From positions 1 to 40,762 of IMG/VR virus record IMGVR_UViG_3300022867_000001: a stretch of 40,762 nt of DNA, one strand, 5' to 3'. The DNA comes from a virus (lineage: Duplodnaviria; Caudoviricetes). Within the stretch, counting starts at the first letter, position 1, and the number at the start of each line of letters is the position of its first letter. The translations under genes were made by a program, and so were the position numbers. The notes beneath the pieces are model-generated. The model was not told the origin of the DNA and ran no database searches. It saw nothing but the letters and a program-made list of their open reading frames with translations. This document shows, piece after piece, positions 14,654 to 33,021 of this stretch.

Positions 14654-14670
14654 CTAAAAGAGCAGGTTTA
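14654..14670 (-). promoter_or_regulatory. Phage RNAP promoter, late-type, heading the structural operon
   Basis: TAAACCTGCTCTTTTAG; its TAA is the nrdB stop codon. Confidence 0.85.
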
Positions 14671-15618
14671 GTCCCACAGACTGCCAGTCACAGTCCCTTT
14701 ATTATATTCAGTAGCTCTATTCTCAAAAAAGTTTGCATGTTCTACGCCATTTAATACCCAATCTAACCACGATAGAGGGTTTTCTTTGACACCAAAGTTA
14801 GGCTTTAGAGATAACTGAAGTAATCGTCTATCAGCTATGTATCTAATATACTGTTTAACTTCATCAGCTTTAAGTCCTCTAATGCCCCCTTGTGCAAAAG
14901 CTAAATCAATAAACTTATCTTCTAAGTCAATCATGTCTCTAGCTGTTTGATAGATACTTGCTTTAAATTTTTCTGTCCAAATGTGAGGGTTTTCTTTTAT
15001 TAAAGCATGGAATATTTTAATCATGCTTTCTACATGGTGTGTCTCATCTCTAATAGACCAAGTAACTATCTGACACATGCCTTTCATACGTCCATATCTT
15101 TGAAAGTTAAGTAGCATTACAAATGAAGCAAACAACTGTAAGCCTTCACCAAATGCAGAAAAACAAGCTATCTCTCTAGCTAATCCTTCTATACCTGTTC
15201 CTTTACTTTGAAATAGATAAGTGTGTTTATCAGACATTTCTTTATATTCTTGGAATGCTTTGTATTCTTTGTCAGGCAAACCAATCGTATCATTTAATAA
15301 AGAATAACTGTGTGCATGATTAGCTTCTGATGTGGCTATAGCTGATAACATCATTCTAATTTCAGGTGGTTTAAATTTAGGAATGTATTTATCTAAATAT
15401 GCTTGTGCAATATCTACATCTCCTTGTGTAAAGAATTTTAATATCTGCCCAATCAAATTCTTTTCTGGCTCTGATAATCTTTCATTCCAATCTCTTACAT
15501 CTTCATGCAATGGAACTTCACTAGGTAGCCAGTGCATTTTTTGTTGCATGTCGTAACTTTCAAATGCCCAATCGTATTCAAAGGGTTTATAATATGCTCT
15601 TGTTTTAAATAAACTCAT
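14668..15618 (-). CDS. nrdB: Class I ribonucleotide reductase beta subunit
   Basis: HWLPSEV, FFTQGD, EANHAHSY, FGEGLQLF, IRDETHH; probable start MSLFK at 15618 (ATGA overlap) rather than 15693. Confidence 0.95.
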   Translation of the reverse strand: MSLFKTRAYYKPFEYDWAFESYDMQQKMHWLPSEVPLHEDVRDWNERLSEPEKNLIGQILKFFTQGDVDIAQAYLDKYIPKFKPPEIRMMLSAIATSEANHAHSYSLLNDTIGLPDKEYKAFQEYKEMSDKHTYLFQSKGTGIEGLAREIACFSAFGEGLQLFASFVMLLNFQRYGRMKGMCQIVTWSIRDETHHVESMIKIFHALIKENPHIWTEKFKASIYQTARDMIDLEDKFIDLAFAQGGIRGLKADEVKQYIRYIADRRLLQLSLKPNFGVKENPLSWLDWVLNGVEHANFFENRATEYNKGTVTGSLWD

Positions 15619-15767
15619 CTTAGTAACTCTATCCCTTCTATTATGATTAATATTAATAACTCTACTGCTAGGACAGTATGATAAACCGTCCACAGCACTG
15701 TTTGTTTTTGGTGTTTGTTTCTTCTTTTCTTCTTAAAACCAAATGATTTAATTGGAGGGTAATTCAT
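15615..15767 (-). CDS. Small membrane protein (50 aa, basic N-terminus, one hydrophobic helix)
   Basis: MNYPPIKSFGFKKKRRNKHQKQTVLWTVYHTVLAVELLILIIIEGIELLR; ATGA overlaps at both ends. Confidence 0.6.
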   Translation of the reverse strand: MNYPPIKSFGFKKKRRNKHQKQTVLWTVYHTVLAVELLILIIIEGIELLR

Positions 15768-15868
15768 TTCTGTCCCCTTTTAGTTCTATCTCCATACAAT
15801 TTTTGCCACGACCAACTGGTTAAATACGTTGAGTAATGATAAATTATTTTTAATATATATATCTTCAT
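15764..15868 (-). CDS. Small hypothetical protein (34 aa)
   Basis: TAATG overlap with nrdA stop; MKIYILKIIYHYSTYLTSWSWQKLYGDRTKRGQK. Confidence 0.55.
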   Translation of the reverse strand: MKIYILKIIYHYSTYLTSWSWQKLYGDRTKRGQK

Positions 15869-17619
15869 TATTCACACGCTAAACAATCGGCTTCTGGTAT
15901 GATTGTTCTTTCTACTTTTTTTGATACTAACTCTGCACGTTTGATTGCCTCACTTCTGCAATAGTACAAAGTCTTTAACTTTTTCTTCCACGCTAACATG
16001 TGAGTGTCATGTAACTCTTTAATGTTTACATCAGCAGGGACGAAAAGATTTACTGACTGTCCTTGACAGATATATTTCTGCCTGTCAGCCGCATGTTCTA
16101 TAATCCATTGTTGATTTATCTCGATACCAGTTTTAAAAACATCTTTTTCATAATCTGATAACTCTTTAAGATGTAAGACACTGCCTCTTTGCGAGACAAT
16201 GGACGACCATATAGCATCATTGTTTATCCCTTTCTTTTCTAATAGTTTTTCTAAATATTTATTCTTAACCAAGAATGAACCAGACATAGTTTTTTGCACA
16301 TAAGCATTGGCTCTATAAGGTTCTATTGAAGGTGAAGTAGTCCCACAAATAATAGATGATGAAGCGTTAGGTGCAACAGCTAACAAGTGTGCATTACGCA
16401 TACCTGTACCTTCCATGTCAGGAGCTTCTCCTCTTTTAACTGCAAGTCTTTTACTTTCTTCTACTGCTTCTTCTTTAATACTTTTAAACATTTTCATATT
16501 TAAAGATTTAGCTAACGCACTTTCAAAAGCTATGTTCTTAGATTGTAAATAAGCGTGGAAACCCATTGCTCCTAATCCAATACTTCTTTCTTGTGCCGCA
16601 CTAAACTTTGCTCTGAACACACTGTCAGGTGCATTCTCTATAAAGTAAGTTAAAGCGTTGTCTAAAAATCTAACTAAATCAGGTATGAATAATTTATCAT
16701 TCTTCCATTCATCATACTTTTCTAAATTAACAGAAGACAAACAACACACTGCTGTTCTATCTTCGTTAGTAGGTAAAGTAATTTCAGTACATAAGTTTGA
16801 GTGGTGTACTTTTAATCCTAATTTCTTTTGTGTTTCAGGCAATGCTTCATTGATAGTATCTATAAAAGAAACATAAGGCTCACCAGTGGCTACTCTATTT
16901 TCTAATAACTTTTGCCACAACTCTCTAGCTGATGCTGTACGCACTACTTCTTTTGTATGTGGGTCAATCAAATTCCAACTGTCATCATACGTAGGTTCAG
17001 CTACACACTTTTCAATCAAGTGCATAAAATCATCTGACACATTTATTGCATGATGTAGGTTAAGACATTTTCTATGTATGTCTCCACCGCTAGGTTTTCT
17101 CATTTCTAAAAATTCAATTATCTCTGGGTGAGACATGTCCATGTAAGCCGCATAACTACCACGCCTTGTTTTACCTTGAGAGAATGCAAGTATCTCACTG
17201 TCTACAACGTGAAGAAAAGGTATTGAACCAGATGATTGTGAACCACCTGAAGTGCTTGTACCATCTGAACGTACATGTCCCCAGTAGCCACCTATGCCAC
17301 CACCAATAGAAGCTAACCAAGCATTCTCTGTGTAGTGTCCTGTTAATCCTTCTCTACTATCTCCTACATAATTTAAGAAGCAAGAAATAGGCATACCTCT
17401 ATTTGCTCCGCCGTTAGATAAAATAGGTGTGGAATACATGAACCATAATTTAGAAGCGTAATCATATATACGCTGTGCCATCTCATCATTATCAGAGAAT
17501 GCTTTAGCGGCTCTCATAAATCCATCTTGCGGTGAGTTCTCGTTAGGTAGTAAGTACCTATCTTTTAAAGTTGTCTTACCAAAGTCAGTAAGTAGTTCGT
17601 CTCTTTCGTAATTAATCAT
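15868..17619 (-). CDS. nrdA: Class I ribonucleotide reductase alpha subunit (short, no ATP cone)
   Basis: PISCF, SNLCTEI, VCCLSS, APNASSS, KTLYY, C-terminal CLAC. Confidence 0.96.
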   Translation of the reverse strand: MINYERDELLTDFGKTTLKDRYLLPNENSPQDGFMRAAKAFSDNDEMAQRIYDYASKLWFMYSTPILSNGGANRGMPISCFLNYVGDSREGLTGHYTENAWLASIGGGIGGYWGHVRSDGTSTSGGSQSSGSIPFLHVVDSEILAFSQGKTRRGSYAAYMDMSHPEIIEFLEMRKPSGGDIHRKCLNLHHAINVSDDFMHLIEKCVAEPTYDDSWNLIDPHTKEVVRTASARELWQKLLENRVATGEPYVSFIDTINEALPETQKKLGLKVHHSNLCTEITLPTNEDRTAVCCLSSVNLEKYDEWKNDKLFIPDLVRFLDNALTYFIENAPDSVFRAKFSAAQERSIGLGAMGFHAYLQSKNIAFESALAKSLNMKMFKSIKEEAVEESKRLAVKRGEAPDMEGTGMRNAHLLAVAPNASSSIICGTTSPSIEPYRANAYVQKTMSGSFLVKNKYLEKLLEKKGINNDAIWSSIVSQRGSVLHLKELSDYEKDVFKTGIEINQQWIIEHAADRQKYICQGQSVNLFVPADVNIKELHDTHMLAWKKKLKTLYYCRSEAIKRAELVSKKVERTIIPEADCLACE

Positions 17620-20689: not shown

Positions 20690-20967
20690 AGTTTTACCTT
20701 CTTAATTTTTAATACATTGACAGTAGGTATAGTAGTTACGTTACCTACGTCACCCAATGTACCATCATCATTAAAATTTACATCTGAAGCTAATACATGG
20801 ACATCTTTGTCAGCTTTAAGTAACCAACCATTTGAAATACAAATAGTTATTTTACTATTAACTGCGTCTTTTAAAGAAACCCATTCAGCCGAACCATTTA
20901 TATCTTTCCAATATAAAGAAACGAATTGTGCGTTTAATATCTTTTTATTTATTGTTGGTAATTTCAT
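20686..20967 (-). CDS. Hypothetical protein (93 aa)
   Basis: ORF overlapping both neighbours. Confidence 0.65.
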   Translation of the reverse strand: MKLPTINKKILNAQFVSLYWKDINGSAEWVSLKDAVNSKITICISNGWLLKADKDVHVLASDVNFNDDGTLGDVGNVTTIPTVNVLKIKKVKL

Positions 20968-21646
20968 TTATCCTTTTTGTTGCTATTTGAAAATAGTTGT
21001 TGTCTAATTCTATTCCTGTAAAATTTCTGTTAGTGTTTTTACAAGCCACTCCTGTAGACCCTGAACCCATTGTAAAATCTAAAACCGTATCATTTTCGTT
21101 AGTATAGGTTTTTATTAAGTATTCTAATAATGCTACAGGTTTTTGAGTTGGGTGTAATCCTCTCTCATTTTTAAATTCTATTATTGTTTTTGGATAATTT
21201 GTAAATTCACTTTTATTTATTGATTCATATTTACCTAAAACATCTGTATTTTTGCCTCTACGATTTTTACCCTTTAAATTTTTTTGTAAATTTTGTGGTT
21301 TGTATATTTTTGAATTAAAAATACTTATAATTTCTATTTCTTTTAATGGTCGTTTTTTTGCATTTAAAAATCCCATTATATTTGATTTTTTCCAAATCCA
21401 ATCATACTTAAATTGTTTGATATTACTCATTCTTAAAGCACTACTAAAAGGCTCACTACCAAATAATGCTATACAACCCTTATCTTTAATTATTCTTTTT
21501 AATTGATTCCACATTGGTTCAAAAGGAATAACACTATCCCATTTACATTGTGTCGTTCCATAAGGTGGGTCAGTAAGTATTAAATCTACTGAATTGTCTT
21601 CTAGCTTTGACATCTCTGCTAGGCAATCTCCGTTTATTAAATTCAT
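20945..21646 (-). CDS. Orphan N4-C/N6-A DNA methyltransferase (beta class)
   Basis: DPPY, HPTQKP, LDFTMGSGSTG in beta order. Confidence 0.93.
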   Translation of the reverse strand: MNLINGDCLAEMSKLEDNSVDLILTDPPYGTTQCKWDSVIPFEPMWNQLKRIIKDKGCIALFGSEPFSSALRMSNIKQFKYDWIWKKSNIMGFLNAKKRPLKEIEIISIFNSKIYKPQNLQKNLKGKNRRGKNTDVLGKYESINKSEFTNYPKTIIEFKNERGLHPTQKPVALLEYLIKTYTNENDTVLDFTMGSGSTGVACKNTNRNFTGIELDNNYFQIATKRINEITNNK

Positions 21647-21873: not shown

Positions 21874-23473
21874 CTAAAACCTCTGATGTAGTTTCAGAAA
21901 GACAACCTGTTTCTAAATTATATAATAAAGAACATGCTTTGCCTGTTTCACCAGAATATCTATTTTTAAGAATTGCTAGATTGGCTATTTTTTTATCTGA
22001 CTTGATGTCTCTGGATATAGAAATAATTAAATCTGATAATTGACCTATTGAAGCTGAACCTCTAAGAGCATTCATGGTAACTTCTTTACCGTCTTCGTAA
22101 CCTTTATCACCTTCTGACCTTCTTAGATGGCTAATAAGTATGACACCTATGCCTGTTTCTTCTACAAGTGTTCTTAATGTGCTTACAAAATAATCAATTA
22201 ACTTTCTTTCATCATTAGTATGTTCATCACCCAATGCAGATAAAGCCATGTGTAAATGGTCTAATACTACAAAGTCTACTTCACATGATTTTGCTAAATA
22301 TCTTATCTTAGTAAGTAAGTTATCTGCGGCTGTACAGCCAAAGTGATTAAATAGATAAAAATTCCCATTACCAACAGTTGATTTAAAAGTCTCTTCAAGT
22401 TGTGTTTCATTAATACCTTCTCTTGTTAAATGCAGAGGTTTTTGAAGGGCAACACCCATGATACCCAATGCACTACGTTTAATACTTTCTTCTAAAGCTA
22501 TGTAACCAACTTTAAAATCTTGTCTTAATAAATCTAATGCTACGTGACGACAGAAAGAAGATTTACCTACACCGCTACCTGCTGTAATAGTTGTAAGCTC
22601 ACCTTTTCTTAAACCATGTGTCTTATTGTTAAGGCTTTTAAAAGGGTACTGTGCTGTAACGTGTTTATCTTCTTTTAATATTTCTTCAAAAATTTCAGAA
22701 CCTAATACGATACCATCAGGTCTATATGGTTTTGCATTCCACATAGCTTTTTTAAGTTCTTCTGTTCTACCTGCTAATAACATTTCGTTAGCGTCTTTAA
22801 GTGGTAGAGAAGCAATCTTGGCTTTGTTAGGCGTAAAAAGTTTTGCAACTTCGTTTGCCGCTTTCTGCCCTGCTTCGTCTTGGTCGAAGCATAAGATTAC
22901 ATTCTCGTAACCCTCCAAGAATTCGAGAGAATTTTGAATATCTTTTTTTGCACCTGCCGCACCTGTTTTGATGGAGACAAAATCAAAATTGTTATCGTTA
23001 ACTTGACTAAATGAAAGACAATCAAGTTCTCCTTCACAGACAGTAATATATTTTCCTTTTCCTCTACAAGTTTCTTGTCCAAACAAACCTGCTTCTTTTG
23101 GATTACCTACCCATTGAAAATCTTTATTAGGGTATCTAAATTTTTGTGCTACGATTTCTTTGCTATCATTATAATAATTAGCAATATGACATGGACGTGC
23201 AAACCATGAACCTACTTGGTAGTTATATTTTTTTACTGTATCTAAATTAATTCCTCTTTTATTAAGAGGTAAGTGTTCACCTTTAACAAAGTTAGTAACC
23301 TCTTCTCTTTTGATTGGTTGTAATTCGGCATTCATAATTGTTGATTTTCCTTTTGTGGTGTGTTGACATGAGAAACAATGTGTATGTCCGTCTGAATAGA
23401 CGGCGTTAGCGTCAGACGAAGAACAGTTGTCACAAGGCTCGTGATATAAAAATTCGCTTTCAGTTTCGTTCAT
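21863..23473 (-). CDS. Primase/helicase (gp4)
   Basis: CDNC..CFSC zinc finger, EGELD TOPRIM, AGSGVGKS Walker A, LDHL, LRGS, KNR. Confidence 0.97.
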   Translation of the reverse strand: MNETESEFLYHEPCDNCSSSDANAVYSDGHTHCFSCQHTTKGKSTIMNAELQPIKREEVTNFVKGEHLPLNKRGINLDTVKKYNYQVGSWFARPCHIANYYNDSKEIVAQKFRYPNKDFQWVGNPKEAGLFGQETCRGKGKYITVCEGELDCLSFSQVNDNNFDFVSIKTGAAGAKKDIQNSLEFLEGYENVILCFDQDEAGQKAANEVAKLFTPNKAKIASLPLKDANEMLLAGRTEELKKAMWNAKPYRPDGIVLGSEIFEEILKEDKHVTAQYPFKSLNNKTHGLRKGELTTITAGSGVGKSSFCRHVALDLLRQDFKVGYIALEESIKRSALGIMGVALQKPLHLTREGINETQLEETFKSTVGNGNFYLFNHFGCTAADNLLTKIRYLAKSCEVDFVVLDHLHMALSALGDEHTNDERKLIDYFVSTLRTLVEETGIGVILISHLRRSEGDKGYEDGKEVTMNALRGSASIGQLSDLIISISRDIKSDKKIANLAILKNRYSGETGKACSLLYNLETGCLSETTSEVLDDY

Positions 23474-23507
23474 AATGTAATAATTTGTGTGAGTTTAAAT
23501 AAGTGAG

Positions 23508-23581
23508 GGCTTCGTGGCGGAATGGTTACGCAGAAGATTGCAAATCTTTGTATCCCAGTTCGATTCTGGGCGAAGCCTCCA
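23508..23581 (+). tRNA. tRNA-Cys(GCA) with encoded CCA
   Basis: GGCTTCG/CGAAGCC acceptor, GCG/CGC D stem, GAAGA-TTGCAAA-TCTTT anticodon arm, TTCGATT T loop, U73, CCA. Confidence 0.95.
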
Positions 23582-23626
23582 AAGAGTTGAGGTAACTTCA
23601 GTCTCCCTCCATTACCCCATAAATAC

Positions 23627-23662
23627 GAAACGCCTCTAGCTATTTCTAACTAGAAGCGTCTC
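23627..23662 (-). terminator. 16-bp GAAA-capped hairpin after the amidase stop (terminator or processing site, possibly bidirectional)
   Basis: GAGACGCTTCTAGTTA-GAAA-TAGCTAGAGGCGTTTC; non-WC positions are G-U on the minus strand. Confidence 0.6.
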
Positions 23663-24095
23663 AATCAACAATCGCCTGTACATCAAAAGACATACACGAT
23701 TTTTTGGAGTTAATTGCATTTCTGCAACCCACTACCTCAACGCTATACTTTGTTTTGAGCCTTTTTACAAGTTCACGTAAAGATACGTATTGCTCGATTG
23801 TAAAGTTAACGTCAAGACCTGTACCATCTTCCAATAGCCCTCCTACGAGACCTATTGCGATAGAATTTTTGTTAGTAATTAAAGGTTGGTTGATAGGTAG
23901 TATTGCACCAGACATTTCTTCTTTACGCCCAGTCTCTACAGTTCCATCTCTTTTAATTATAAAGTGAAACGCATTATAGAAATAACCTTCTTTTGCATGT
24001 TTTAAAGTTATATCCTTTGCGTTTAAATCTTCACTTGGTTTTGTTTTAGTTGAGTGAACAACTATAAAATCTGTTCTTTCTCTGTTATTATTCAT
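23661..24095 (-). CDS. T7 lysozyme (gp3.5) amidase homologue with altered active site
   Basis: VVHST.TKPS, HFIIKRDGTVETGR, NSIAIGLVGG, NFTIEQ closely follow T7 gp3.5. Confidence 0.88.
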   Translation of the reverse strand: MNNNRERTDFIVVHSTKTKPSEDLNAKDITLKHAKEGYFYNAFHFIIKRDGTVETGRKEEMSGAILPINQPLITNKNSIAIGLVGGLLEDGTGLDVNFTIEQYVSLRELVKRLKTKYSVEVVGCRNAINSKKSCMSFDVQAIVD

Positions 24096-24501
24096 TTAGC
24101 CACTCCAACGGTATGTGTTTATCTGCAAACTTAAATCCATATTTTTCAGACCACATTGCATAAGTTGTTTGCGATTTTTTTGAGATACGACTTCGTGAAT
24201 TACTAAAAACAAACCTGATGTCTAATTCAGGGTGTTGTTCTTTTACTAATCGCATTTTTTGTCTATCAGCAGAAGTGAACAAACCTTTGGTTTCAATATA
24301 AATGTTTTGCTCTTGTAGGTAAAAGTCTGGCGTATACGTATGAGCTTTCGTAGGTTTGACATAAGTCAATTTAACCTTCTCATAGGTATACGTTACCTTA
24401 TTAGCGTCTAACTCTTGTGAGATAGCTATTTCTAAACCAGACCTGAAACCATGTTTCAAACCAATTTGATTAGAAGTCTGTCGAGGACGGTGATACTTCA
24501 T
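24088..24501 (-). CDS. Endonuclease I (gp3, Holliday junction resolvase)
   Basis: FRSGLE, YTPDF, IETKG, HPELDIRFVF; start uncertain (24501 preferred over 24588). Confidence 0.95.
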   Translation of the reverse strand: MKYHRPRQTSNQIGLKHGFRSGLEIAISQELDANKVTYTYEKVKLTYVKPTKAHTYTPDFYLQEQNIYIETKGLFTSADRQKMRLVKEQHPELDIRFVFSNSRSRISKKSQTTYAMWSEKYGFKFADKHIPLEWLNE

Positions 24502-25093
24502 TTTCAAATGTGTTTTCTGCTTGTGGTGCAACATAGCCATCTTTGATTTCTTCAAAGCCATGAGTTTGTGAACCTGCACCTTTGCCACCTTCGACTAGCT
24601 TGGCTACTTGCACAGCTTTTAATCTCAAGCTGACACCTGCACCTGCCATAGCGGTGTAATAAGGTATCATATCAGCAGAAACTTTCATTTCACTGCCAGA
24701 CCAAATCTGGTCTTTCATAGGTGTACCTTTGCTATCGAAGACTGGAATTTTAATATCTATAGTCTCACCACTTTTCATATTAATTTTAGCTTTTGCTTTA
24801 AATTTAAAAATGATGTTTCCAGTTGGCTTACCTTCTAAATATTCTTCTTCGAAGGGTAAGTTAGCTGTTTTAGGTTCTTTACCTTTAGATTGCTGTTTAG
24901 CCATTTCTAAAGATGTTTTCATCTCGTCTTTAATAGACTTAATGATTGACTGTGCCTCAGACCCTTTGACAATTAGGTTAGTCTTAAAGTGACCACCATT
25001 CTCTTTATCAAATTTAGTATCTGGGGTATTAAGCCAACAATATTGACTAACGCCTACTGGTGTTACCAATTTGTTATATACTTTTTTGTTCAT
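24470..25093 (-). CDS. Single-stranded DNA-binding protein (gp2.5)
   Basis: TPVG..YCWLNTPD, GSEMKV, GVSLRLKAVQV, C-terminal DF. Confidence 0.93.
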   Translation of the reverse strand: MNKKVYNKLVTPVGVSQYCWLNTPDTKFDKENGGHFKTNLIVKGSEAQSIIKSIKDEMKTSLEMAKQQSKGKEPKTANLPFEEEYLEGKPTGNIIFKFKAKAKINMKSGETIDIKIPVFDSKGTPMKDQIWSGSEMKVSADMIPYYTAMAGAGVSLRLKAVQVAKLVEGGKGAGSQTHGFEEIKDGYVAPQAENTFENEVSPSSTDF

Positions 25094-25148
25094 ATTATCC
25101 TTATTTGTTGTTGTTTCTTTGATTTACTCCAAAGAGACTGTTGATTGT

Positions 25149-25165
25149 CTAATAGGGCAGGTTTA
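25149..25165 (-). promoter_or_regulatory. Phage RNAP promoter, middle-type TAAACCTGCCCTATTAG
   Basis: Directly downstream of the RNAP gene, upstream of the replication operon. Confidence 0.85.
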
Positions 25166-25203
25166 CTAATCCCACCCTGCTTAGTTTCCGATAGTGCATA
25201 CAA

Positions 25204-27651
25204 TTAGGCAAAGAAATACTTACATTTGTGTAGTAAATCTAAATCTAGCTCACCATCTTTAGGTCTTTCAGGTAGTTCAGCTATAGCCTCATCTGATAAC
25301 GTCTCTGATACTTTTGCCTTAAAATCAGAAAGTAAATCTTTAGAGAAAATACTTACAAAGGCTTCTCTAATACTTTCATTAAGTTTATCTATATCACAGG
25401 CATGAGTTGCAAAACTATCATGCACATTGCAAAAGTTTTCTATTCCTTTTTCTCTTGCAATGTTAACCGTCCTAATCATACAGGCACTATCTAACGAGTG
25501 AACGTAGTTAGCAGGACAGCTATTACGCTGTTTCATTTTGTCGGTCTCTGGTTTGGCTTCTCTTATTGTGGATTGGATTACCTGTCCCATCAAATGTGTC
25601 TCTACCCTTCTACTTTTTATTTCTGGGTAATATTGATAAACAGGAAAACCTACTGGAGTTACCCAGTGTATAGGCACACCTTCCTTTGCGACAACTTTTG
25701 CTATGTCCTGCAAATATCTCATTCCTTCTTTTGCAGATTTTAAGTTCTCACCTATTGATTGCCAAATTAATTTTGACAAATATGTTGATGGTTTGAACAA
25801 GTCATCAAATGGGTGCATTTCTCCTTTATCTTTTCTTTTAGTTAAGTCTTCAACTACAAAGTCAGTACATGCGTATCTTGTACTTCCATAAGTAAGTGTC
25901 ATAACAGGTCTTTTACAAGTAGACCTTTTAACACCGTAGTCTAACCACTTAGTAGCTAACTCTTCTCCTTCAGCAGATTTTTGTTCTGCATTTTTAACTA
26001 CTTCATCTTTCACAAGTCCATAGATGTCTTGTGGTACATCATTAGGTACACAGTTTACTAATGACCCTGCAACTTTATCTTTAAGTAATAAAGAATAAAT
26101 TTGTAAGCCATTACAAGAACCATCTACGTTAACTGGAATATGAGAAATAAATCCATCACCTTCTTTTGTGTATCTATTCCACTCATCACAAAATGCTAAA
26201 AACTGAAAAGCATTATCTGCGTCTTCCCACTGCCTATTACCAATAGGGTCTTCAGCACATGCCTTAATCCAATCAGCATTGTCATAAGTCCATTTTTCTC
26301 TATCTTCAAATGTTACTTTGTCGTTTCCCCACATGTTTGCTCCATGCACAGATAGCCAAAATACACCTCTGTTCTCTTTTGTGATGGCTTTACCTTGACT
26401 AAAATTTAACAGAGCTTTCGCACCGTTAATAGATTGATAGTTAAGAAAAGCAGGAACACAATATGCACGTCCTCTAAAGTCTAACTGTATTGGAAAATAC
26501 ATAGTCACATATTCTTTGAACTGCTCTGCTAAATTTATAATTTTAGCATAAAGCATTCTTTTAGATGACATACGGTTATTCTCTGTGTGTACAATTACAC
26601 AGGCTTTCTTATACTCAAATAGAGCTTCTTTATTGGTATCTATATCGTGAGGTTTTTGTGGTATGTCTAGGTTTTCAATGGGTGGCATTCCTCCTATTGA
26701 AAGAGACTTATCCCAAGCATTCTGCATAACCTCAAGTATAAAGGTATTAATCCTATAAGCCGTACTTTGCATTAGATTAACTGCACTTGTAACTTCAGGC
26801 ATGTCATGGTTTTCTAGCTCATTGGTAAATTTCTTACCACGTTGCTTAACAAGGTCTAATTCTGGCATTTCTGATGTCCAGTACCCATGACCTTGTACTT
26901 GTCCGTCTACGACTGATTTTGGAGCAAGAACCATAGGTAAATACTCTGGGTTTAATAGCTCATTAAAGCTATTTCTGTCTTGTATCCATTTTTTAGTAAA
27001 AGCAGTTTGCCTTATAACTTTAAAGGTTTTGTGCTTATGTTGGTCAGTGCCTATTTCTATAAGTCCTACACTTTCTACCATTAAGGTAATTAATTGCATT
27101 CCTGTGTGTAGTCTTTCGGTAGTTGACCATTCTTCCCAACTTACAACTTCATCTTTCTTAGCCATTTCTCTGTATTTTCTTCTTTTGTAGGTATAGTTAA
27201 AAGACCTCTTGTCTAAATCTTTTTTAACTATGTGGTATAAATCTGGATTTAAGTTCTTAAAATTTTTAAGACTAATCTCAGTTTCAATTCTACCTCCTAA
27301 CTTAATTGCAGTTGCAGTTAAATTTTTGGTAGTCGTGATAGTATTCATAATATGCTTTAAGGCTATCAAAGCAGTTACTTTTGGGTCTTTTATTTGGGAG
27401 ATTTTTTGAAGGGCTATAGGTGTTTTAGAATGAACATTAGATGACGCTTGTTCTACCCATTCACTAATTGCCTCTGCGTATGGTCTGATAAGATTTGCTA
27501 CTAAGACTTTTCCGTAGGACGTAACACTTTCGTCTTCTCTTTCTATGTGAGACAAACGCCTTTTATTAGTCCTATGTTTTCCTCTTTCATTACCCATTTT
27601 TTCTAACTCTTTTTGATTTAAAAAGTCTGGCATTATTTCAAGTATTCTCAT
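25204..27651 (-). CDS. Single-subunit DNA-dependent RNA polymerase (gp1)
   Basis: DFRGRAY, DGSCNGLQ, RSTCKRPVMTLTYG, NYVHSLD, VHDSF, YFFA end; start 27651 has AGGAG SD. Confidence 0.97.
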   Translation of the reverse strand: MRILEIMPDFLNQKELEKMGNERGKHRTNKRRLSHIEREDESVTSYGKVLVANLIRPYAEAISEWVEQASSNVHSKTPIALQKISQIKDPKVTALIALKHIMNTITTTKNLTATAIKLGGRIETEISLKNFKNLNPDLYHIVKKDLDKRSFNYTYKRRKYREMAKKDEVVSWEEWSTTERLHTGMQLITLMVESVGLIEIGTDQHKHKTFKVIRQTAFTKKWIQDRNSFNELLNPEYLPMVLAPKSVVDGQVQGHGYWTSEMPELDLVKQRGKKFTNELENHDMPEVTSAVNLMQSTAYRINTFILEVMQNAWDKSLSIGGMPPIENLDIPQKPHDIDTNKEALFEYKKACVIVHTENNRMSSKRMLYAKIINLAEQFKEYVTMYFPIQLDFRGRAYCVPAFLNYQSINGAKALLNFSQGKAITKENRGVFWLSVHGANMWGNDKVTFEDREKWTYDNADWIKACAEDPIGNRQWEDADNAFQFLAFCDEWNRYTKEGDGFISHIPVNVDGSCNGLQIYSLLLKDKVAGSLVNCVPNDVPQDIYGLVKDEVVKNAEQKSAEGEELATKWLDYGVKRSTCKRPVMTLTYGSTRYACTDFVVEDLTKRKDKGEMHPFDDLFKPSTYLSKLIWQSIGENLKSAKEGMRYLQDIAKVVAKEGVPIHWVTPVGFPVYQYYPEIKSRRVETHLMGQVIQSTIREAKPETDKMKQRNSCPANYVHSLDSACMIRTVNIAREKGIENFCNVHDSFATHACDIDKLNESIREAFVSIFSKDLLSDFKAKVSETLSDEAIAELPERPKDGELDLDLLHKCKYFFA

Positions 27652-27799
27652 GTATTCTCCTGTTGATTGATTATGCAACTGCGGAATGACCTACAATTTA
27701 GGTTCTATCCTTTGCTATTTGTCGTACAAGGTAAGAGAGAATAGTTGTTATTTTACTTAACTAATTTAAGATTTAACTATCCACTGAGTGCAAAGACAC

Positions 27800-27815
27800 G
27801 AGGATTGCAAATCCT
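27800..27815 (+). mobile_element. Putative attP core (tRNA-Cys anticodon-arm mimic)
   Basis: GAGGATTGCAAATCCT = AGGATT-GCA-AATCCT palindrome, 86 bp beyond the integrase stop; resembles the anticodon arm of the tRNA-Cys at 23508. Confidence 0.8.
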
Positions 27816-27901
27816 ATTGTATCTATGCACACATAATTAGTATGCTTTTATTAGTTAAATATATACTCATTAATCAACTATCCTCTAATTACCATTATTC
27901 C

Positions 27902-28783
27902 TTAACTAGCTTTGTTAAAAGTGTTAAGAACATTTACTGCGTCTCGTAGATTATTAGGTATTAAATGTGAATACCTGCTAATCATTTTCCATGACTTATG
28001 ACCTAACATCTGACCAATAAAGTGAAGTTCTACTTTACCTGATTGAGCCATACGTGTTGCACAAGTGTGTCTTAAACAATGAATGACAAACTCTTTGTCG
28101 TCTTGAAGGTTCATTGCTTTTCTTAGTCTTCTCCAAGTATTCTCACAAGTCCAATATTTTAAATGTGAAAACACTAGGTCGTTTCTTCCTACCGCTTTTT
28201 TAAGTAACTTCTCAACGATTAACTTAGCACGTTCTGTTAAAGGTACACCTCTGGGCATATTGTTTTTAGTTACCTCTTTAGGTAAATTAACAACATAATG
28301 ACCATCTACATTGTGTATCATTAGCTTCTTAATAGATAACGCTTCGCCAAGCCTTAAACCGCTATCGATAAGAAAAAGATAGAACTCTAAATAATCAACC
28401 ATATTCCACTCGGTCAATAATTTAATTATTTCTTTTTCTTCGATTGGCTCAAGGTATCTTTCTCGTCCATTGTTACTTTCGTCCTGCCATTGAATATGAG
28501 GCATTCTATCTAAATGATAAATAGACTGTCTCTGATTGGCATAACGTAACATCTTAGAGATTGAGGACATATAACGATTAATAGTTGCAGGAGCAAAACC
28601 TCTGTCCTCCAACGTATCCACAAGATTTTCTATGTGGCTATCGTTAACTTCAGTTACAAGCATTCCCTTACCAAGCATATCAATTATTTTCTCGGCTCGT
28701 TTAGATTGCAACTTTTCCCAACCTTTAAGTGTTAACTTGCGGTGTATCTCCGTCAACAACTTGACATTTTTTGTCTGTTGCAT
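27902..28783 (-). CDS. int: Tyrosine integrase
   Basis: SGLRLGE (R), TKN (K), HCLRH (HxxR), LGHKS (H), RYSH (Y). Confidence 0.95.
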   Translation of the reverse strand: MQQTKNVKLLTEIHRKLTLKGWEKLQSKRAEKIIDMLGKGMLVTEVNDSHIENLVDTLEDRGFAPATINRYMSSISKMLRYANQRQSIYHLDRMPHIQWQDESNNGRERYLEPIEEKEIIKLLTEWNMVDYLEFYLFLIDSGLRLGEALSIKKLMIHNVDGHYVVNLPKEVTKNNMPRGVPLTERAKLIVEKLLKKAVGRNDLVFSHLKYWTCENTWRRLRKAMNLQDDKEFVIHCLRHTCATRMAQSGKVELHFIGQMLGHKSWKMISRYSHLIPNNLRDAVNVLNTFNKAS

Positions 28784-28804
28784 TTGTACCTCCGCTTTTC
28801 ATTG

Positions 28805-29152
28805 TTATTTGACCCATTCAAGAAGAGTATTGTGTACCCTTCTTCCCTTTGCTGTAAGACGCACAAGTTTTCTACGTCTTTCCATTGGGTCTTCAAAGTT
28901 CTCTAATAGACCTATCCCAACTTTTCGGTGTCTGTTGATAGTTGCTAACTTATAGCAATTTCTTGAAACACTTGATTGAGCTATGTCTAAAACCTCCGAT
29001 ATAGCTTGTTGAGCCACACCGTCTTTACCGCCTTTATCCGCTACATAGAAAAAAACAGATATAGCTTGAGCCTCTAACTGTGGGTCAAACTTTCTCATTT
29101 CTTCTATAATCTTCAAAAGATTATTACTCATTTTCTTTCTTCTTTCTTTCAT
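28805..29152 (-). CDS. MarR-like winged-helix protein (regulator or excision factor); start may be 29131
   Basis: QQAISEVLDIAQSSVSRN HTH; EDPMERRRKLVRLTAKG wing motif. Confidence 0.85.
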   Translation of the reverse strand: MKERRKKMSNNLLKIIEEMRKFDPQLEAQAISVFFYVADKGGKDGVAQQAISEVLDIAQSSVSRNCYKLATINRHRKVGIGLLENFEDPMERRRKLVRLTAKGRRVHNTLLEWVK

Positions 29153-29498: not shown

Positions 29499-29559
29499 GC
29501 AAAATACACCGTCTAGTCTTTAGACGGCATTTCGGCTATTGAAGCCTCGTCAGTTTTGC
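29499..29559 (-). ncRNA. Hammerhead ribozyme, type I
   Basis: GCAAAA CUGACGA GGCU-UCAAU-AGCC GAAA UGCCGUCUA-AAGAC-UAGACGGUG UA^UUUUGC; full core and all three stems; predicted cut between 29505 and 29504. Confidence 0.9.
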
Positions 29560-29603
29560 TTTTTAGAACTTTTCCATTAGTCCTCCATTGTTGATTTTTG
29601 GAT

Positions 29604-29855
29604 TTAATCTCTGCAACCAATAGGTTCTGGTTTATTATGTAACACCCCACACCCTAATGGACTTAAATCGCAAAAAGGATACGCAGGACAACCTAAATGT
29701 TTTCTATCATTATCTAAGTTTTTTTTAGGTTTCTTTTTTTTAGCAGTGATTTTTGATTTCTTTTTCTTGCCAAAGATGGCGTCCCAATTCTCTTTGTATT
29801 TCTCTGAGGGTATGTGAACGCCGTCTCGTATTTTATAAGATTTAAAGCCTGACAT
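29604..29855 (-). CDS. Hypothetical basic, Cys-containing early protein (83 aa)
   Basis: ORF, TAATG-coupled to upstream gene. Confidence 0.6.
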   Translation of the reverse strand: MSGFKSYKIRDGVHIPSEKYKENWDAIFGKKKKSKITAKKKKPKKNLDNDRKHLGCPAYPFCDLSPLGCGVLHNKPEPIGCRD

Positions 29856-30041
29856 TATTTAAAAGATATCTCCATCATGCCGTCACCAATGTTTTTTGTT
29901 TTGATACCTGAAAAGTCTTTTTTCAATCTTTTTGAAAGCACCTTGTAAGCCTTATTTTTTAATACTGAAGGTTTAGACCATGTAAGGCTTTTATCCCTCA
30001 TCATTTTGTCCTCGTCACTCATGTATATTTTTTTTTGTCAT
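29855..30041 (-). CDS. Small early ORF, frameshifted at an A9 tract (intact 55-aa frame 29855-30022)
   Basis: GGAG SD precedes ATG at 30041, which stops after 8 codons; removing one A joins it to MSDEDKMMRDK... Confidence 0.5.
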
Positions 30042-30059
30042 GTTTCACTCCGTTGATTG

Positions 30060-30146
30060 TTGATTAAATAAAAACGCCGTCTAGTCCACGCTTCAGTCAA
30101 TACTAAAAAGTTTGATAATCACGCTAGAACTAGAAAACATTTATTT
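30060..30146 (-). repeat. Hairpin family B copy (long interrupted stem)
   Basis: 28 bp (30060-30087) identical to 30445-30472; UGUUUUCUAGUUC pairs with GGACUAGACGGCG. Confidence 0.7.
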
Positions 30147-30149
30147 GAT

Positions 30150-30205
30150 TTGACTTATATAAAAAGTCTCAAAGCCTACTCTGTGTGAATAGGCTTTAAG
30201 TCTGT
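30150..30205 (-). repeat. Intergenic repeat A, copy 1 (double hairpin)
   Basis: ACAGACTTAAAGCCTATTCACACAGAGTAGGCTTTGAGACTTTTTATATAAGTCAA. Confidence 0.9.
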
Positions 30206-30427
30206 CTATAACTTTTTAATTATGATTTTTGCTGTTTTATCTTTCATAATTTTTCTTGCTTGATTGATGGCTTTTCTATCTGAGGCAATAAACATACCTT
30301 TAACAGTTGTTGGAATACCGCCCATAGTAATTCTTTGGGGAATATCCATAAAAGCATAATAAGTGTCTATTGTCCCATCATTGAAATTCATACAATGTTT
30401 ATAAATTGTATATTCTTGCTCTACCAT
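30206..30427 (-). CDS. Hypothetical early protein (73 aa)
   Basis: GGAG SD, CAA-rich leader. Confidence 0.7.
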   Translation of the reverse strand: MVEQEYTIYKHCMNFNDGTIDTYYAFMDIPQRITMGGIPTTVKGMFIASDRKAINQARKIMKDKTAKIIIKKL

Positions 30428-30444
30428 TTTTGCTCCATTGTTGA

Positions 30445-30494
30445 TTGATTAAATAAAAACGCCGTCTAGTCCTTAGCAAAGAATTAAACGGCGT
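30445..30494 (-). repeat. Hairpin family B copy
   Basis: ACGCCGTTTAATTCTT-TGCT-AAGGACTAGACGGCGT followed by TTTTATTT. Confidence 0.7.
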
Positions 30495-30508
30495 AATTGT
30501 ATTATTTA

Positions 30509-30643
30509 TTAACTAACTTTTTTAATAGGAAAGTTAATTACATTAGATGTTGGACGCAGTGAGGCTCGGACTTTTTGCACTGTACTTGTCGCCAAGTAAC
30601 ACACCGCCAACTCTTCGAGGCTAAAAAGTGAAAGTTGTTTCAC
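30509..30643 (-). CDS. Small hypothetical protein (44 aa, GTG start)
   Basis: TAGTG overlap; MKQLSLFSLEELAVCYLATSTVQKVRASLRPTSNVINFPIKKVS. Confidence 0.5.
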   Translation of the reverse strand: MKQLSLFSLEELAVCYLATSTVQKVRASLRPTSNVINFPIKKVS

Positions 30644-30807
30644 TAACTAAGCCAACCTTCAGCAATAGCATTATGAAACATTTTTAGCTTTTGCTCTTGT
30701 GGTGCGTTTTGGTAGTCCTCAAAGTGTTTCTTCTTCTCGGTCTCGTCTCGATACTTAAAGGCACTCTCTGCCCTTTGTATCTTTTGAACACATCTTGCAA
30801 TCTGCAT
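30643..30807 (-). CDS. Small hypothetical protein (54 aa)
   Basis: AGGAG SD; MQIARCVQKIQRAESAFKYRDETEKKKHFEDYQNAPQEQKLKMFHNAIAEGWLS. Confidence 0.7.
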   Translation of the reverse strand: MQIARCVQKIQRAESAFKYRDETEKKKHFEDYQNAPQEQKLKMFHNAIAEGWLS

Positions 30808-30839
30808 GTGTGGTTCTCCTATTGTTGGTTGATTGTTGA

Positions 30840-30897
30840 TTGACTTTTAAAAAAAAAGTCTCAAAGCCTACCCTGTGCAAATAGGCTTTAAGTCTGT
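30840..30897 (-). repeat. Intergenic repeat A, copy 2
   Basis: Near-identical to 30150-30205. Confidence 0.9.
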
Positions 30898-30904
30898 TTT
30901 TAAT

Positions 30905-31465
30905 TTACCAACTTTTATTGAAGATATGAACTTTGTAATTGTCCGCCTTGCACTCCATATAATCAAATGACAAATCACGCTCAAAGCTGTCATAGTCAAA
31001 ATATCTTGCAAGTGTAGAATTGCTGTCATTGTCTAAGCCTTCAACGGTGTCGTTTGCGTAATCTTGGGCAAACTCTTTGAAGCTGTCATAAGTACCGTGA
31101 AAAGCGTCTTCAAAATGTTCAAGGTCTTCAACTGACCAATGTTCAATGAAGCCTTCAACCGCTTTTACTCCGTGCAATTTAATTGCCTCCACAACTTCAA
31201 TTACTTTTTCTAAATCTGGATATTCTCCCAAATTTGGAAAATTGTCATAGTCATGTATTGCGTATTCCTCTGCGTCTGGACTTGGTGACGATTTAAGAAC
31301 CTCCGCAATTTGTGCTTCTAGTTCGTCTTTGTCTGTCTTTGGCTCAATCCAAGAACCATACAGAACGCCTGAATTGTAAGACGATAAACAAGCTATGTAT
31401 ATTTTAGATTTTTCTATTTCGTCAACTTTGCTTAACTCATTTGTTTTAATTGTATTAGTTTGCAT
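30905..31465 (-). CDS. ardA: Antirestriction protein ArdA (DNA mimic)
   Basis: IYIACLSSYNSGVLYGSW, EEYAIHDYD, LARYFDYDSFERDL; highly acidic. Confidence 0.9.
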   Translation of the reverse strand: MQTNTIKTNELSKVDEIEKSKIYIACLSSYNSGVLYGSWIEPKTDKDELEAQIAEVLKSSPSPDAEEYAIHDYDNFPNLGEYPDLEKVIEVVEAIKLHGVKAVEGFIEHWSVEDLEHFEDAFHGTYDSFKEFAQDYANDTVEGLDNDSNSTLARYFDYDSFERDLSFDYMECKADNYKVHIFNKSW

Positions 31466-31501
31466 TGTGTTAACTCCATGTGTTGATTGTTGATTGTTGA
31501 T

Positions 31502-31556
31502 TTGACTTTATAAAAAGTCTCAAAGCCTACCCTGTGTGAATAGGCTTCAAGTCTGT
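31502..31556 (-). repeat. Intergenic repeat A, copy 3
   Basis: Near-identical to the other two copies. Confidence 0.9.
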
Positions 31557-31569
31557 TTATAATTAATAT

Positions 31570-32425: not shown

Positions 32426-32442
32426 CTAATAGTGCAGGTTTA
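32426..32442 (-). promoter_or_regulatory. Phage RNAP promoter TAAACCTGCACTATTAG (end-proximal)
   Basis: Matches the 5-copy consensus. Confidence 0.85.
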
Positions 32443-32577
32443 CTCTCTGCGTGTACTCTTTATAGTTATTACTATTAATGATATAATTACTGAGGTGATA
32501 CCTATAGATAGACCTTAGGTTAACTTTAAGAGATACTTTAAGTAGATACTTAGAGTGTATCTTTTTTATCATACCTT

Positions 32578-32594
32578 CTAATAGTGCAGGTTTA
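32578..32594 (-). promoter_or_regulatory. Phage RNAP promoter TAAACCTGCACTATTAG (end-proximal)
   Basis: Identical to 32426-32442. Confidence 0.85.
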
Positions 32595-32712
32595 CTATTC
32601 ATTAACCTTATGACCTTAACCCTGCGTTACCTTCTCAATGCCTCTGTGCGTGGCTCTGTGTGGCTCTGTGAGTGTGTTCCTGTGGTGCATTAGATGAGTT
32701 GAAGGATTGCAC

Positions 32713-32814
32713 GGCGTGTGCCTGTGCGTGGTACTTAAAGAGTAACAAGGCGTGTGTCTTTGCGTGGTACTTAAAGAGTAACAAGGCGTGTGTCTTTGCG
32801 TGGTACTTAAAGAG
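32713..32814. repeat. 36-bp tandem repeat, about 2.8 copies
   Basis: GGCGTGTGTCTTTGCGTGGTACTTAAAGAGTAACAA units at 32713, 32749 and 32785. Confidence 0.92.
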
Positions 32815-33021
32815 CCAATGCAAAAAAACAGACTATCTCTCACACGTACACGAATAAAAAAAGTACACGCCCACACAGCCCCACACAAAGGATATGCAGT
32901 CCTTATACATAGAAAAAACCCTTTAAAGCCTCACTTTTGGTAGTTTTTGCACTCGCCCACACGCACCGCACGGGGGAAACTGCCGTCCTGTGTATATCAA
33001 ATACCCACACAGATTTTCTCT

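What the first reader, a model, noticed from the sequence alone, without database searches (positions are those of the whole stretch)
23508..27815. Integration into tRNA-Cys with a recoded replacement tRNA
Seen: the attP candidate GAGGATTGCAAATCCT has only the anticodon arm, with no T-arm or acceptor half after it, so integration would break the target tRNA. The phage carries a full tRNA-Cys reading GAAGATTGCAAATCTT: a compensatory G-C to A-U swap that keeps the stem but alters both arms of the att palindrome. It is the only confidently called plus-strand gene. Established: HTVC019P-type pelagiphages integrate at tRNA genes including tRNA-Cys. Inference: the phage tRNA complements the broken host gene, escapes its own integrase, is expressed independently of the silenced lytic strand, and may make the host dependent on the prophage.
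Basis: partly seen in the sequence, partly recalled or inferred. Interest (0 to 1): 0.72.

Follow-up and report, generated by a model that had tools for sequence, protein, structure and literature searches.

The report
Pelagiphage spare tRNA, recoded att arms
This marine SAR11 phage carries an integration site that would split its host's only cysteine tRNA gene, plus a complete spare copy that likely replaces it, an arrangement already published for its close relative HTVC019P; the added points are that every such spare copy has an altered stem, which likely keeps the phage's own integrase off it, and that two host genomes carry the same altered stems in their own gene.

Summary
Observation confirmed; the core idea is published. 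The window is an HTVC019P-type pelagiphage. Its core-only attP (27800-27815) matches SAR11 tRNA-Cys, and simulated junctions rebuild no tRNA. An antisense tRNA-Cys sits at 23508-23581. Zhao et al. (bioRxiv 10.1101/410191) state this for HTVC019P, and it fits tRNA-dependent lysogeny (PMC10865867). This scan noted similar cases on other DNA.

Added here:
(2) All 7 phage tRNA alleles break the 14-mer kept in all 65 Cys-type attP sites; only 1 of 335 hosts lacks C41. A host-identical copy would be a direct-repeat attB 4,267 bp from attP, so recombination would delete the RNA polymerase block. Integrase escape is likely (about 0.55) but untested; unrelated phages also carry odd stems.
(3) Two SAR11 genomes carry phage-type stems at the native locus.

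Not shown: junctions for this phage, expression, host addiction (precise excision would restore the host gene). New member of a known kind; interest 0.4.

The parts
23508..23581 (+). Complete phage tRNA-Cys(GCA) with encoded CCA, antisense to the phage genes, between primase and amidase; anticodon stem GAAGA/TCTTT (A at 23535 and T at 23547 differ from host and attP)
27800..27815 (+). Candidate attP core = host tRNA-Cys anticodon arm; the 14-mer at 27801-27814 is present in all 65 Cys-type attP sites of relatives; the 7-nt loop is the likely overlap region
   Evidence: attP position between integrase and RNAP as in 10.1101/410191
27787..27830 (.). Imperfect extended inverted repeat around the core; the left arm carries no tRNA 5' half (4 of 26 matches); likely integrase-binding arms
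   Evidence: binding role inferred
27902..28783 (-). Tyrosine integrase, 293 aa, catalytic set R144 K173 H235 R238 H262 Y271 by motif; 85% identical to HTVC019P integrase; no arm-binding domain found by Pfam
23661..27678 (-). Amidase, endonuclease I, ssDNA-binding protein and RNA polymerase: the block between the two direct-oriented anticodon loops (4,267 bp apart) that attP x tRNA recombination would delete
   Evidence: deletion inferred from orientation
23503..23507 (+). 5-nt leader GTGAG shared with 2 of 119 host tRNA-Cys genes (L103, L151) and with host-like contigs in runs X12 and X14; hints at capture from such a host
23582..23663 (-). Two hairpins on the phage strand after the amidase (z -6.5), one terminator-like; also present in relatives without the tRNA, so not part of the tRNA unit
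28805..29152 (-). MarR-like winged-helix regulator upstream of the integrase

Best explanation
This is likely tRNA-dependent integration in an HTVC019P-type pelagiphage: the tyrosine integrase likely crosses the core-only attP with the anticodon arm of the host's single tRNA-Cys gene, neither junction would rebuild the gene, the antisense phage tRNA-Cys likely supplies the missing function, and its altered anticodon stem likely stops the same integrase from using it as a target. Shown: the anatomy, the core-to-host match, failure of simulated junctions, the either/or distribution, and the recoding in every allele. Published for HTVC019P: junctions in the middle of tRNA-Cys. Inferred: complementation (about 0.85), expression from a host-polymerase promoter in the integrated state (about 0.65), and integrase escape as the reason for the recoding (about 0.55). 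The inferred selective force is self-deletion: a host-identical copy would be a complete attB in direct orientation 4,267 bp from attP, and recombination would excise RNA polymerase, SSB, endonuclease and amidase.
For: 78% nucleotide identity and the same gene order as HTVC019P, whose integration splits tRNA-Cys. Host match: 122 of 123. One tRNA-Cys match per genome in 334 of the 335 matching genomes, of 401 searched. Simulated attL and attR of the window give no tRNA, while HTVC022P attR does. Either/or: 16/0 versus 0/30 among spanning loci; 12/0 versus 0/25 after removing duplicates. The core+tRNA state falls in four places of the integrase tree and is interleaved with 5'-half phages in the tree of the RNAP that lies between the two elements, so the link survives recombination. 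Recoding: all 7 alleles have T41, in 4 different stems; 26 of 60 differences from the nearest host allele lie in the 10-nt stem and none in the loop; the HTVC019P-type stem keeps a G-U wobble at 29-41. The complementary search for non-T41 viral tRNA-Cys gave 68 loci, none beside this group's amidase or primase. The same integrase clade also carries tRNA-Leu(TAA) attP sites with the same AGGA-N7-TCCT arms and another loop, which points to the stem as the recognised part. Replacement tRNA-Leu genes of HTVC119P, 200P, 025P and 011P have 5' stem strands not seen in the host rows. Fionnbharth's tRNA also differs from its own attP next to the loop. Recoded stems are the only tRNA-Cys found in two SAR11 genomes, so they are probably functional.
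Against: No attL or attR of this phage in 8 runs (contigs only), in IMG/VR (1 hit, a distant phage) or in the metagenome scan (0 of 18 hits carry this phage's marker genes). No promoter above chance. The alleles are not independent: C41T may have arisen once or twice. Phage alleles also change acceptor-stem, T-loop and D-loop positions that are constant in the host sample (34 of 60 differences). Unrelated low-GC viral tRNA-Cys genes break the 14-mer in 23 of 29 loci, so odd stems are common without this integrase. PMC10865867 (section 9) speculates that replacement tRNAs CAN serve as attB in Cluster L plasmids, and its secondary sites kept few bases. Zhao et al. obtained no stable SAR11 lysogen.
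Confidence: 0.75

Rival explanations
1. Replacement is real but the stem change is neutral: the phage captured or drifted to a variant allele, and the integrase either still uses it or is kept off it by other means.
For: Changes outside the stem (34 of 60); non-host stems in 23 of 29 unrelated low-GC viral loci; few independent origins; rare host alleles with the same stems could be the donors.
Against: 16 of 16 unbiased loci and 0 of 68 complementary hits against 1 of 335 hosts without C41; four stem solutions with an untouched loop; a wobble kept at 29-41; parallel stem differences in four tRNA-Leu phages.
Confidence: 0.3
2. The stem change protects the phage tRNA from a host tRNA nuclease, as T5 tRNA-Lys does against PARIS AriB.
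For: AriB cuts between residues 40 and 41 of tRNA-Lys and a stem swap confers resistance (PMC11464382, passages); all phage alleles change position 41.
Against: An anti-defence tRNA should not track attP type, yet 0 of 30 5'-half phages, some on the same host strains, carry one at this place; the gene is antisense to the lytic genes. No SAR11 tRNA-Cys nuclease was looked for here.
Confidence: 0.12
3. The tRNA serves lytic translation (codon supply) and the core is a decayed, unused att site.
For: Cys codons are 0.96% in 11 phage genes against 0.76% in one host stretch; no junction was found for this phage.
Against: The integrase keeps its catalytic set; the 14-mer is constant while the left arm varies freely; HTVC019P junctions were sequenced; sister phages do without the tRNA.
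Confidence: 0.05

Closest known systems
Pelagibacter phage HTVC019P (Zhao et al., bioRxiv 10.1101/410191; seen: abstract, passages, sections 11 and 12; bioRxiv supplements with Fig. S2 and Table S2 not available)
   Same: Same gene order, attP between integrase and RNAP, mid-gene core in tRNA-Cys, tRNA-Cys between lysozyme and primase 'likely used instead'; 78% nucleotide identity over 23300-28800.
   Different: Different tRNA allele (GAAGA/TCTTT against GTGGA/TCTAC) and different attP left arm; integrase 85% identical. The text I read does not discuss stem recoding, the antisense orientation, self-deletion or host-located alleles; the unseen supplements may show the sequences.
tRNA-dependent lysogeny of actinobacteriophages (Fionnbharth K4, Cluster L, Gaia; Guerrero-Bustamante and Hatfull 2024, PMC10865867; seen: abstract, passages, sections 6, 9, 10, 11)
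   Same: Tyrosine integrase, short core inside a tRNA gene, no reconstruction, cognate phage tRNA often on the opposite strand, sister phages that rebuild the tRNA and lack the spare.
   Different: T7-like podovirus of an alphaproteobacterium; sister phages restore with the 5' half rather than the 3' half; 293-aa integrase with no arm-binding domain found, whereas theirs are lambda-like; the requirement was tested there and not here. That paper speculates the spare tRNA may act as attB and makes no escape claim in the sections read.
HTVC021P, 022P, 121P and 201P (5'-half-restoring pelagiphages, loci L072-L075)
   Same: Same integrase clade, same core and same target gene.
   Different: attP carries 26 of 26 bases of the host tRNA 5' part, attR rebuilds the gene (for 022P), and there is no free tRNA.
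Lo5R7ANS-like prophages of Sinorhizobium meliloti (PMC11476347; seen: passages)
   Same: Alphaproteobacterial prophage that splits a tRNA gene in the middle and carries a divergent same-isotype tRNA.
   Different: tRNA-Leu(UAG), 80.6% identical to the host copy and attributed to other species; the pelagiphage tRNA is a lightly edited Pelagibacter gene.
T5 tRNA-Lys against PARIS AriB (PMC11464382; seen: passages)
   Same: A phage tRNA with a swapped anticodon-stem pair.
   Different: Selected at RNA level against a nuclease in a lytic phage; no link to an att site.

Membership tests
HTVC019P-type pelagiphage (Pelagivirus-like) | T7-like gene order with MarR, integrase, RNAP, SSB, endonuclease, lysozyme, primase | tested here: met
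HTVC019P-type pelagiphage (Pelagivirus-like) | attP in the non-coding gap between integrase and RNAP, matching a SAR11 tRNA gene | tested here: met
HTVC019P-type pelagiphage (Pelagivirus-like) | Infects Pelagibacter | tested here: inconclusive
   inferred from 26 of 29 DNA hits being Pelagibacter phages and from the att match; no host isolate
tRNA-dependent lysogeny | Tyrosine integrase | tested here: met
   PF00589 at 7e-22; catalytic motifs
tRNA-dependent lysogeny | Short common core inside a host tRNA gene; no tRNA rebuilt at attL or attR | tested here: met
   16-bp match; simulated junctions give 0 tRNAs, HTVC022P control gives 1
tRNA-dependent lysogeny | Integration actually occurs at that site | tested here: inconclusive
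   no junction for this phage; shown for HTVC019P in 10.1101/410191; attR-type junction of a distant relative in G405
tRNA-dependent lysogeny | Phage encodes a complete tRNA of the same isotype | tested here: met
tRNA-dependent lysogeny | Target host tRNA is single-copy | tested here: met
   one match in 334 of 335 matching genomes
tRNA-dependent lysogeny | Phage tRNA expressed in the integrated state from its own promoter | tested here: inconclusive
   1 promoter-like site against 2.0 expected by chance; RNA contigs without strand
tRNA-dependent lysogeny | Phage tRNA required for survival after integration | not testable with these tools
   needs a tRNA deletion or an integration-vector test
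Nuclease-evading phage tRNA (T5 tRNA-Lys / PARIS type) | Changed anticodon stem relative to the host tRNA | tested here: met
Nuclease-evading phage tRNA (T5 tRNA-Lys / PARIS type) | Presence independent of att-site type | tested here: not met
   16/0 versus 0/30
Nuclease-evading phage tRNA (T5 tRNA-Lys / PARIS type) | A host nuclease that cuts this tRNA and spares the phage copy | not tested
   no search for SAR11 tRNA nucleases was run

The most novel reading that the evidence does not exclude
The spare tRNA is an integrase-proof allele, and it flows back into the host: recombination between the prophage tRNA and the two halves of the split host gene leaves a cured SAR11 cell whose native tRNA-Cys carries the phage stem and no longer offers attB to any Cys-targeting pelagiphage. 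G039 (1 base from the HTVC019P allele, at the native locus beside valS, no prophage) and G002 (the window's stem in a host frame) would be such cells: a phage-donated resistance to integration, written into an essential tRNA.
Probability: 0.3. Interest if true: 0.68.

Novelty: new member of a known kind. Interest (0 to 1): 0.4.

Why it matters
The arrangement itself is known. What the comparison adds is a clean natural experiment in the phages of one of the ocean's most abundant bacterial groups: one integrase clade, one target, two mutually exclusive ways to pay for breaking an essential gene. If the stem recoding is integrase escape, it gives a simple rule for why replacement tRNAs differ from host copies, one that competes with codon-supply and anti-nuclease explanations. 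It can be tested with a two-site recombination assay in E. coli, without SAR11 genetics. If the host-located alleles came from phages, they would mark past integration in a lineage where prophages are rarely seen, and a route to integration resistance.

Tried and rejected
Junction hunting. IMG/VR attR pattern: 1 hit, a distant T7-like phage (RNAP 32% identical) with core + host 3' half and no tRNA in its 5.1 kb. Metagenome scan: 18 hits, 17 intact tRNA-Cys genes with variant D arms and 1 lone 3' half, none with this phage's marker genes. Contigs of 4 DNA and 4 RNA runs (8 of the 24 listed): no host-like loose end at 27800-27815 and no tRNA-to-attP joint; contigs drop rare forms, so this shows nothing either way.

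G039 as a lysogen: rejected. Its tRNA lies between valS and tRNA-Asn/XRE, with no window-like DNA besides the tRNA in 100 kb, and neither phage RNAP nor integrase was found with these queries in G039 or G002.

More host-located alleles: 0 of 401 in a genus sample that overlaps the order sample and holds many incomplete genomes. The 'relatives' draws for G039 and G002 returned the same general set, so they do not identify nearest relatives.

Promoter scan at chance. MFE folding did not return the cloverleaf (z -1.6); the covariance model does. Codon supply: difference small. Viral tRNA-Leu(TAA) scan: 15 of 120 loci had marker hits, too mixed for a count. The RNAP tree is the quick version; the careful search did not finish. 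The claim that a missing 3' half breaks the gene was rejected: this family restores with the 5' half. Earlier-findings search by place gave nothing.
Full report
**What the window is.** A 40,762-bp virus record with direct terminal repeats. Its gene order is T7-like on the minus strand. The stretch 23300-28800 is 78% identical to Pelagibacter phage HTVC019P over 99% of its length, and 26 of 29 matching records are Pelagibacter phages.

**Observation.** The tRNA-Cys gene (23508-23581, +), the core (27800-27815, +) and the swap (A23535, T23547) are as described. No plus-strand ORF among the 37 scanned has a PHROG family. The integrase is a 293-aa tyrosine recombinase with R144, K173, H235, R238, H262 and Y271 placed by motif.

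**The host matches the core, not the phage tRNA.** A pattern that allowed either base at positions 29 and 41 gave 123 matches in 121 bacterial loci. The 80 titles listed are Pelagibacterales or SAR11-type alphaproteobacteria but for one Rhizobiaceae bin. Of the 123, 122 carry the core and 1 (L138, genome G002) carries the window's stem. With the stem left free, 335 of 401 genomes of the order match, 334 of them once (150 of 336 matches were listed), and only G039 lacks C41. These counts include two unpublished genomes, G115 and G319.

**Already in print.** Zhao et al. (10.1101/410191, section 11) report that HTVC019P integration separates the host tRNA-Cys into two parts and that the tRNA-Cys between lysozyme and primase 'is likely used instead', while HTVC021P, 022P, 121P and 201P restore the gene with its 5' end. 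Guerrero-Bustamante and Hatfull (PMC10865867) named and proved tRNA-dependent lysogeny in mycobacteriophages, including opposite-strand tRNAs with their own promoter. The window lacks the 5' half as well (4 of 26 matches), and simulated attL and attR give no tRNA, whereas the HTVC022P attR does.

**Either/or across relatives.** I examined 78 rows: the window, 68 IMG/VR loci found with the integrase and 9 GenBank records. Of these, 41 have a 5'-half Cys attP, 24 a core-only Cys attP, 5 an inverted tRNA-Leu(TAA) 5'-half attP and 8 no core found. Among Cys rows that reach the tRNA slot, core-only rows carry the tRNA in 16 of 16 and 5'-half rows in 0 of 30; 8 and 11 rows were dropped as too short, and one of the 16 (L045) ends just after the tRNA. 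Without duplicates and with both flanking genes required, the table is 12/0 and 0/25. 'No tRNA' refers to the fetched stretch; for the four isolates above Zhao et al. list none in the genome. The Fisher p-values (1e-12, 5e-10) overstate the case because rows are related. The trees are more telling. Core+tRNA falls in four places of the integrase tree, with HTVC019P and L056 nested among 5'-half phages, and the RNAP between the two elements groups the window with 5'-half phages (RNAP tree quick only).

**Recoding.** All 65 Cys-type attP sites keep AGGATTGCAAATCC. They were picked by the inner 11 bases, so the informative positions are 28, 29 and 41. All 7 phage tRNA alleles have T41 and a change at 28 or 29, in four different stems. 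The loop never changes, and 26 of 60 differences from the nearest host allele fall in the 10-nt stem. One search required T41 and is biased. The unbiased evidence is the 16 of 16 above plus the complementary scan: 68 viral loci with non-T41 tRNA-Cys, none beside this group's amidase or primase. The same integrase clade uses AGGA-N7-TCCT arms around a Leu loop, which suggests that the stem is read and the loop is the exchanged overlap; this fits tyrosine-recombinase sites in general (own knowledge). The tRNA and attP are direct repeats 4,267 bp apart, so a host-identical copy would invite deletion of RNAP, SSB, endonuclease and amidase (inference). Parallel cases: the tRNA-Leu genes of HTVC119P and 200P (CACGA), 025P (TATGC) and 011P (CCAGT) have 5' stem strands not among the host rows (66 of 73 genomes matched; 3' strands not shown); Fionnbharth's tRNA differs from the one loop-like site in its attP region. 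These genes also differ elsewhere, which I did not quantify.

**Against the escape reading.** The alleles may share one or two origins of C41T. Of 60 differences, 34 lie outside the stem. Unrelated low-GC viral tRNA-Cys genes break the 14-mer in 23 of 29 loci and have T41 in 8. PMC10865867 speculates that spare tRNAs can act as attB. A stem swap can also defeat a nuclease (PMC11464382). I put escape at about 0.55.

**Phage-type stems in hosts.** G039 (contig of 1,356,981 bp) has its one tRNA-Cys at the native place, valS - tRNA-Cys - tRNA-Asn - XRE, and it differs from the HTVC019P allele by 1 base. G002 has the window's stem in an otherwise host-type gene. Neither genome holds the 14-mer, nor a match to the phage RNAP or integrase with these queries. 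This suggests that the recoded stems work in SAR11 and that alleles move between phage and host. The direction is open, G002 could be an independent double change, and assembly chimeras are not excluded. A further sample found none in 401 genomes.

**Not shown.** No junction of this phage was found. One attR-type junction with a broken tRNA-Cys was found for a distant T7-like phage (G405). Expression and promoter are unproven. Addiction is limited, because precise excision would rebuild the host gene (own knowledge), and Zhao et al. obtained no stable lysogen and raise lyso-lysis, in which case the tRNA would cover a transient integrated state.

**Literature searches.** Searches returned no paper that, in the listings or passages read, claims integrase escape by stem recoding or phage-type tRNA alleles at the native SAR11 locus. 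The library lacks most subscription papers, the final version of Zhao et al. among them as far as these searches showed, and bioRxiv supplements are closed. PMC12753301, PMC12429752, PMC8477408 and PMC11476347 were seen as passages only. Five earlier notes of this scan describe the same strategy on other DNA.

**Verdict.** A real feature and a new member of a known kind, with a testable refinement. Interest 0.4.

Noticed in passing
G039:C1:654195-654268 and G002:C4 (L138:1495-1568): SAR11 genomes whose native tRNA-Cys carries a phage-type anticodon stem and which lack the att 14-mer.
   Followed up: yes
L043, L059, L060, L061, L079, integrase-RNAP gap: The same integrase clade (82-84% identical) has an inverted attP carrying the 5' half of tRNA-Leu(TAA) with the same arms: a target switch by loop exchange.
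   Followed up: partly
L056, attP left arm; L029: L056 keeps a decayed 5' half (15 of 26 matches) and has a distinct tRNA-Cys allele, suggesting tRNA gain followed by attP decay. L029 has a partly decayed half (23 of 26) but its contig ends before the tRNA slot.
   Followed up: partly
window 27787-27830 and core-only relatives: Left arms of core-only attP sites tend to mirror the right arm, and several contain a GACAC-like motif also found before the tRNA-Leu(TAA) stem.
   Followed up: partly
window 25150-25167, 32427-32444, 32579-32596: Three copies of an 18-bp motif before SSB and near the genome end; candidate phage RNA polymerase promoter on the minus strand.
   Followed up: no
window 23582-23663: Two strong minus-strand hairpins between amidase and primase, conserved in all spanning relatives; terminator or RNase III site candidates.
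   Followed up: partly
G405:C1 (L341) about 4950-5100: attR-type junction of a distant T7-like phage: RNAP, core, host tRNA-Cys 3' half, start of a tRNA-Asn-like sequence; no 5' half.
   Followed up: partly
L146/L147, L186, L323-L340: SAR11-type tRNA-Cys is a hotspot for small islands that restore the gene with a 5' half; 17 of 18 metagenome hits are intact genes with altered D arms.
   Followed up: partly
L035, L037, L064, L069, L070: Relatives with the integrase but no att core in the 230-260 bases after it, the RNAP starting close behind; possibly unable to integrate.
   Followed up: no
L361:1140-1320: T7-like phage with a free tRNA-Leu(TAA) and a core-only site about 140 bp further on; the stems differ. 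Host not determined.
   Followed up: no
window 32700-32820: Short tandem repeats near the likely terminal-repeat region, and repeated motifs between the early genes (29500-31560).
   Followed up: no
window 30905-31465, 20945-21646, 14668-17619: Anti-restriction protein, DNA methyltransferase and both ribonucleotide reductase subunits by PHROG match.
   Followed up: no
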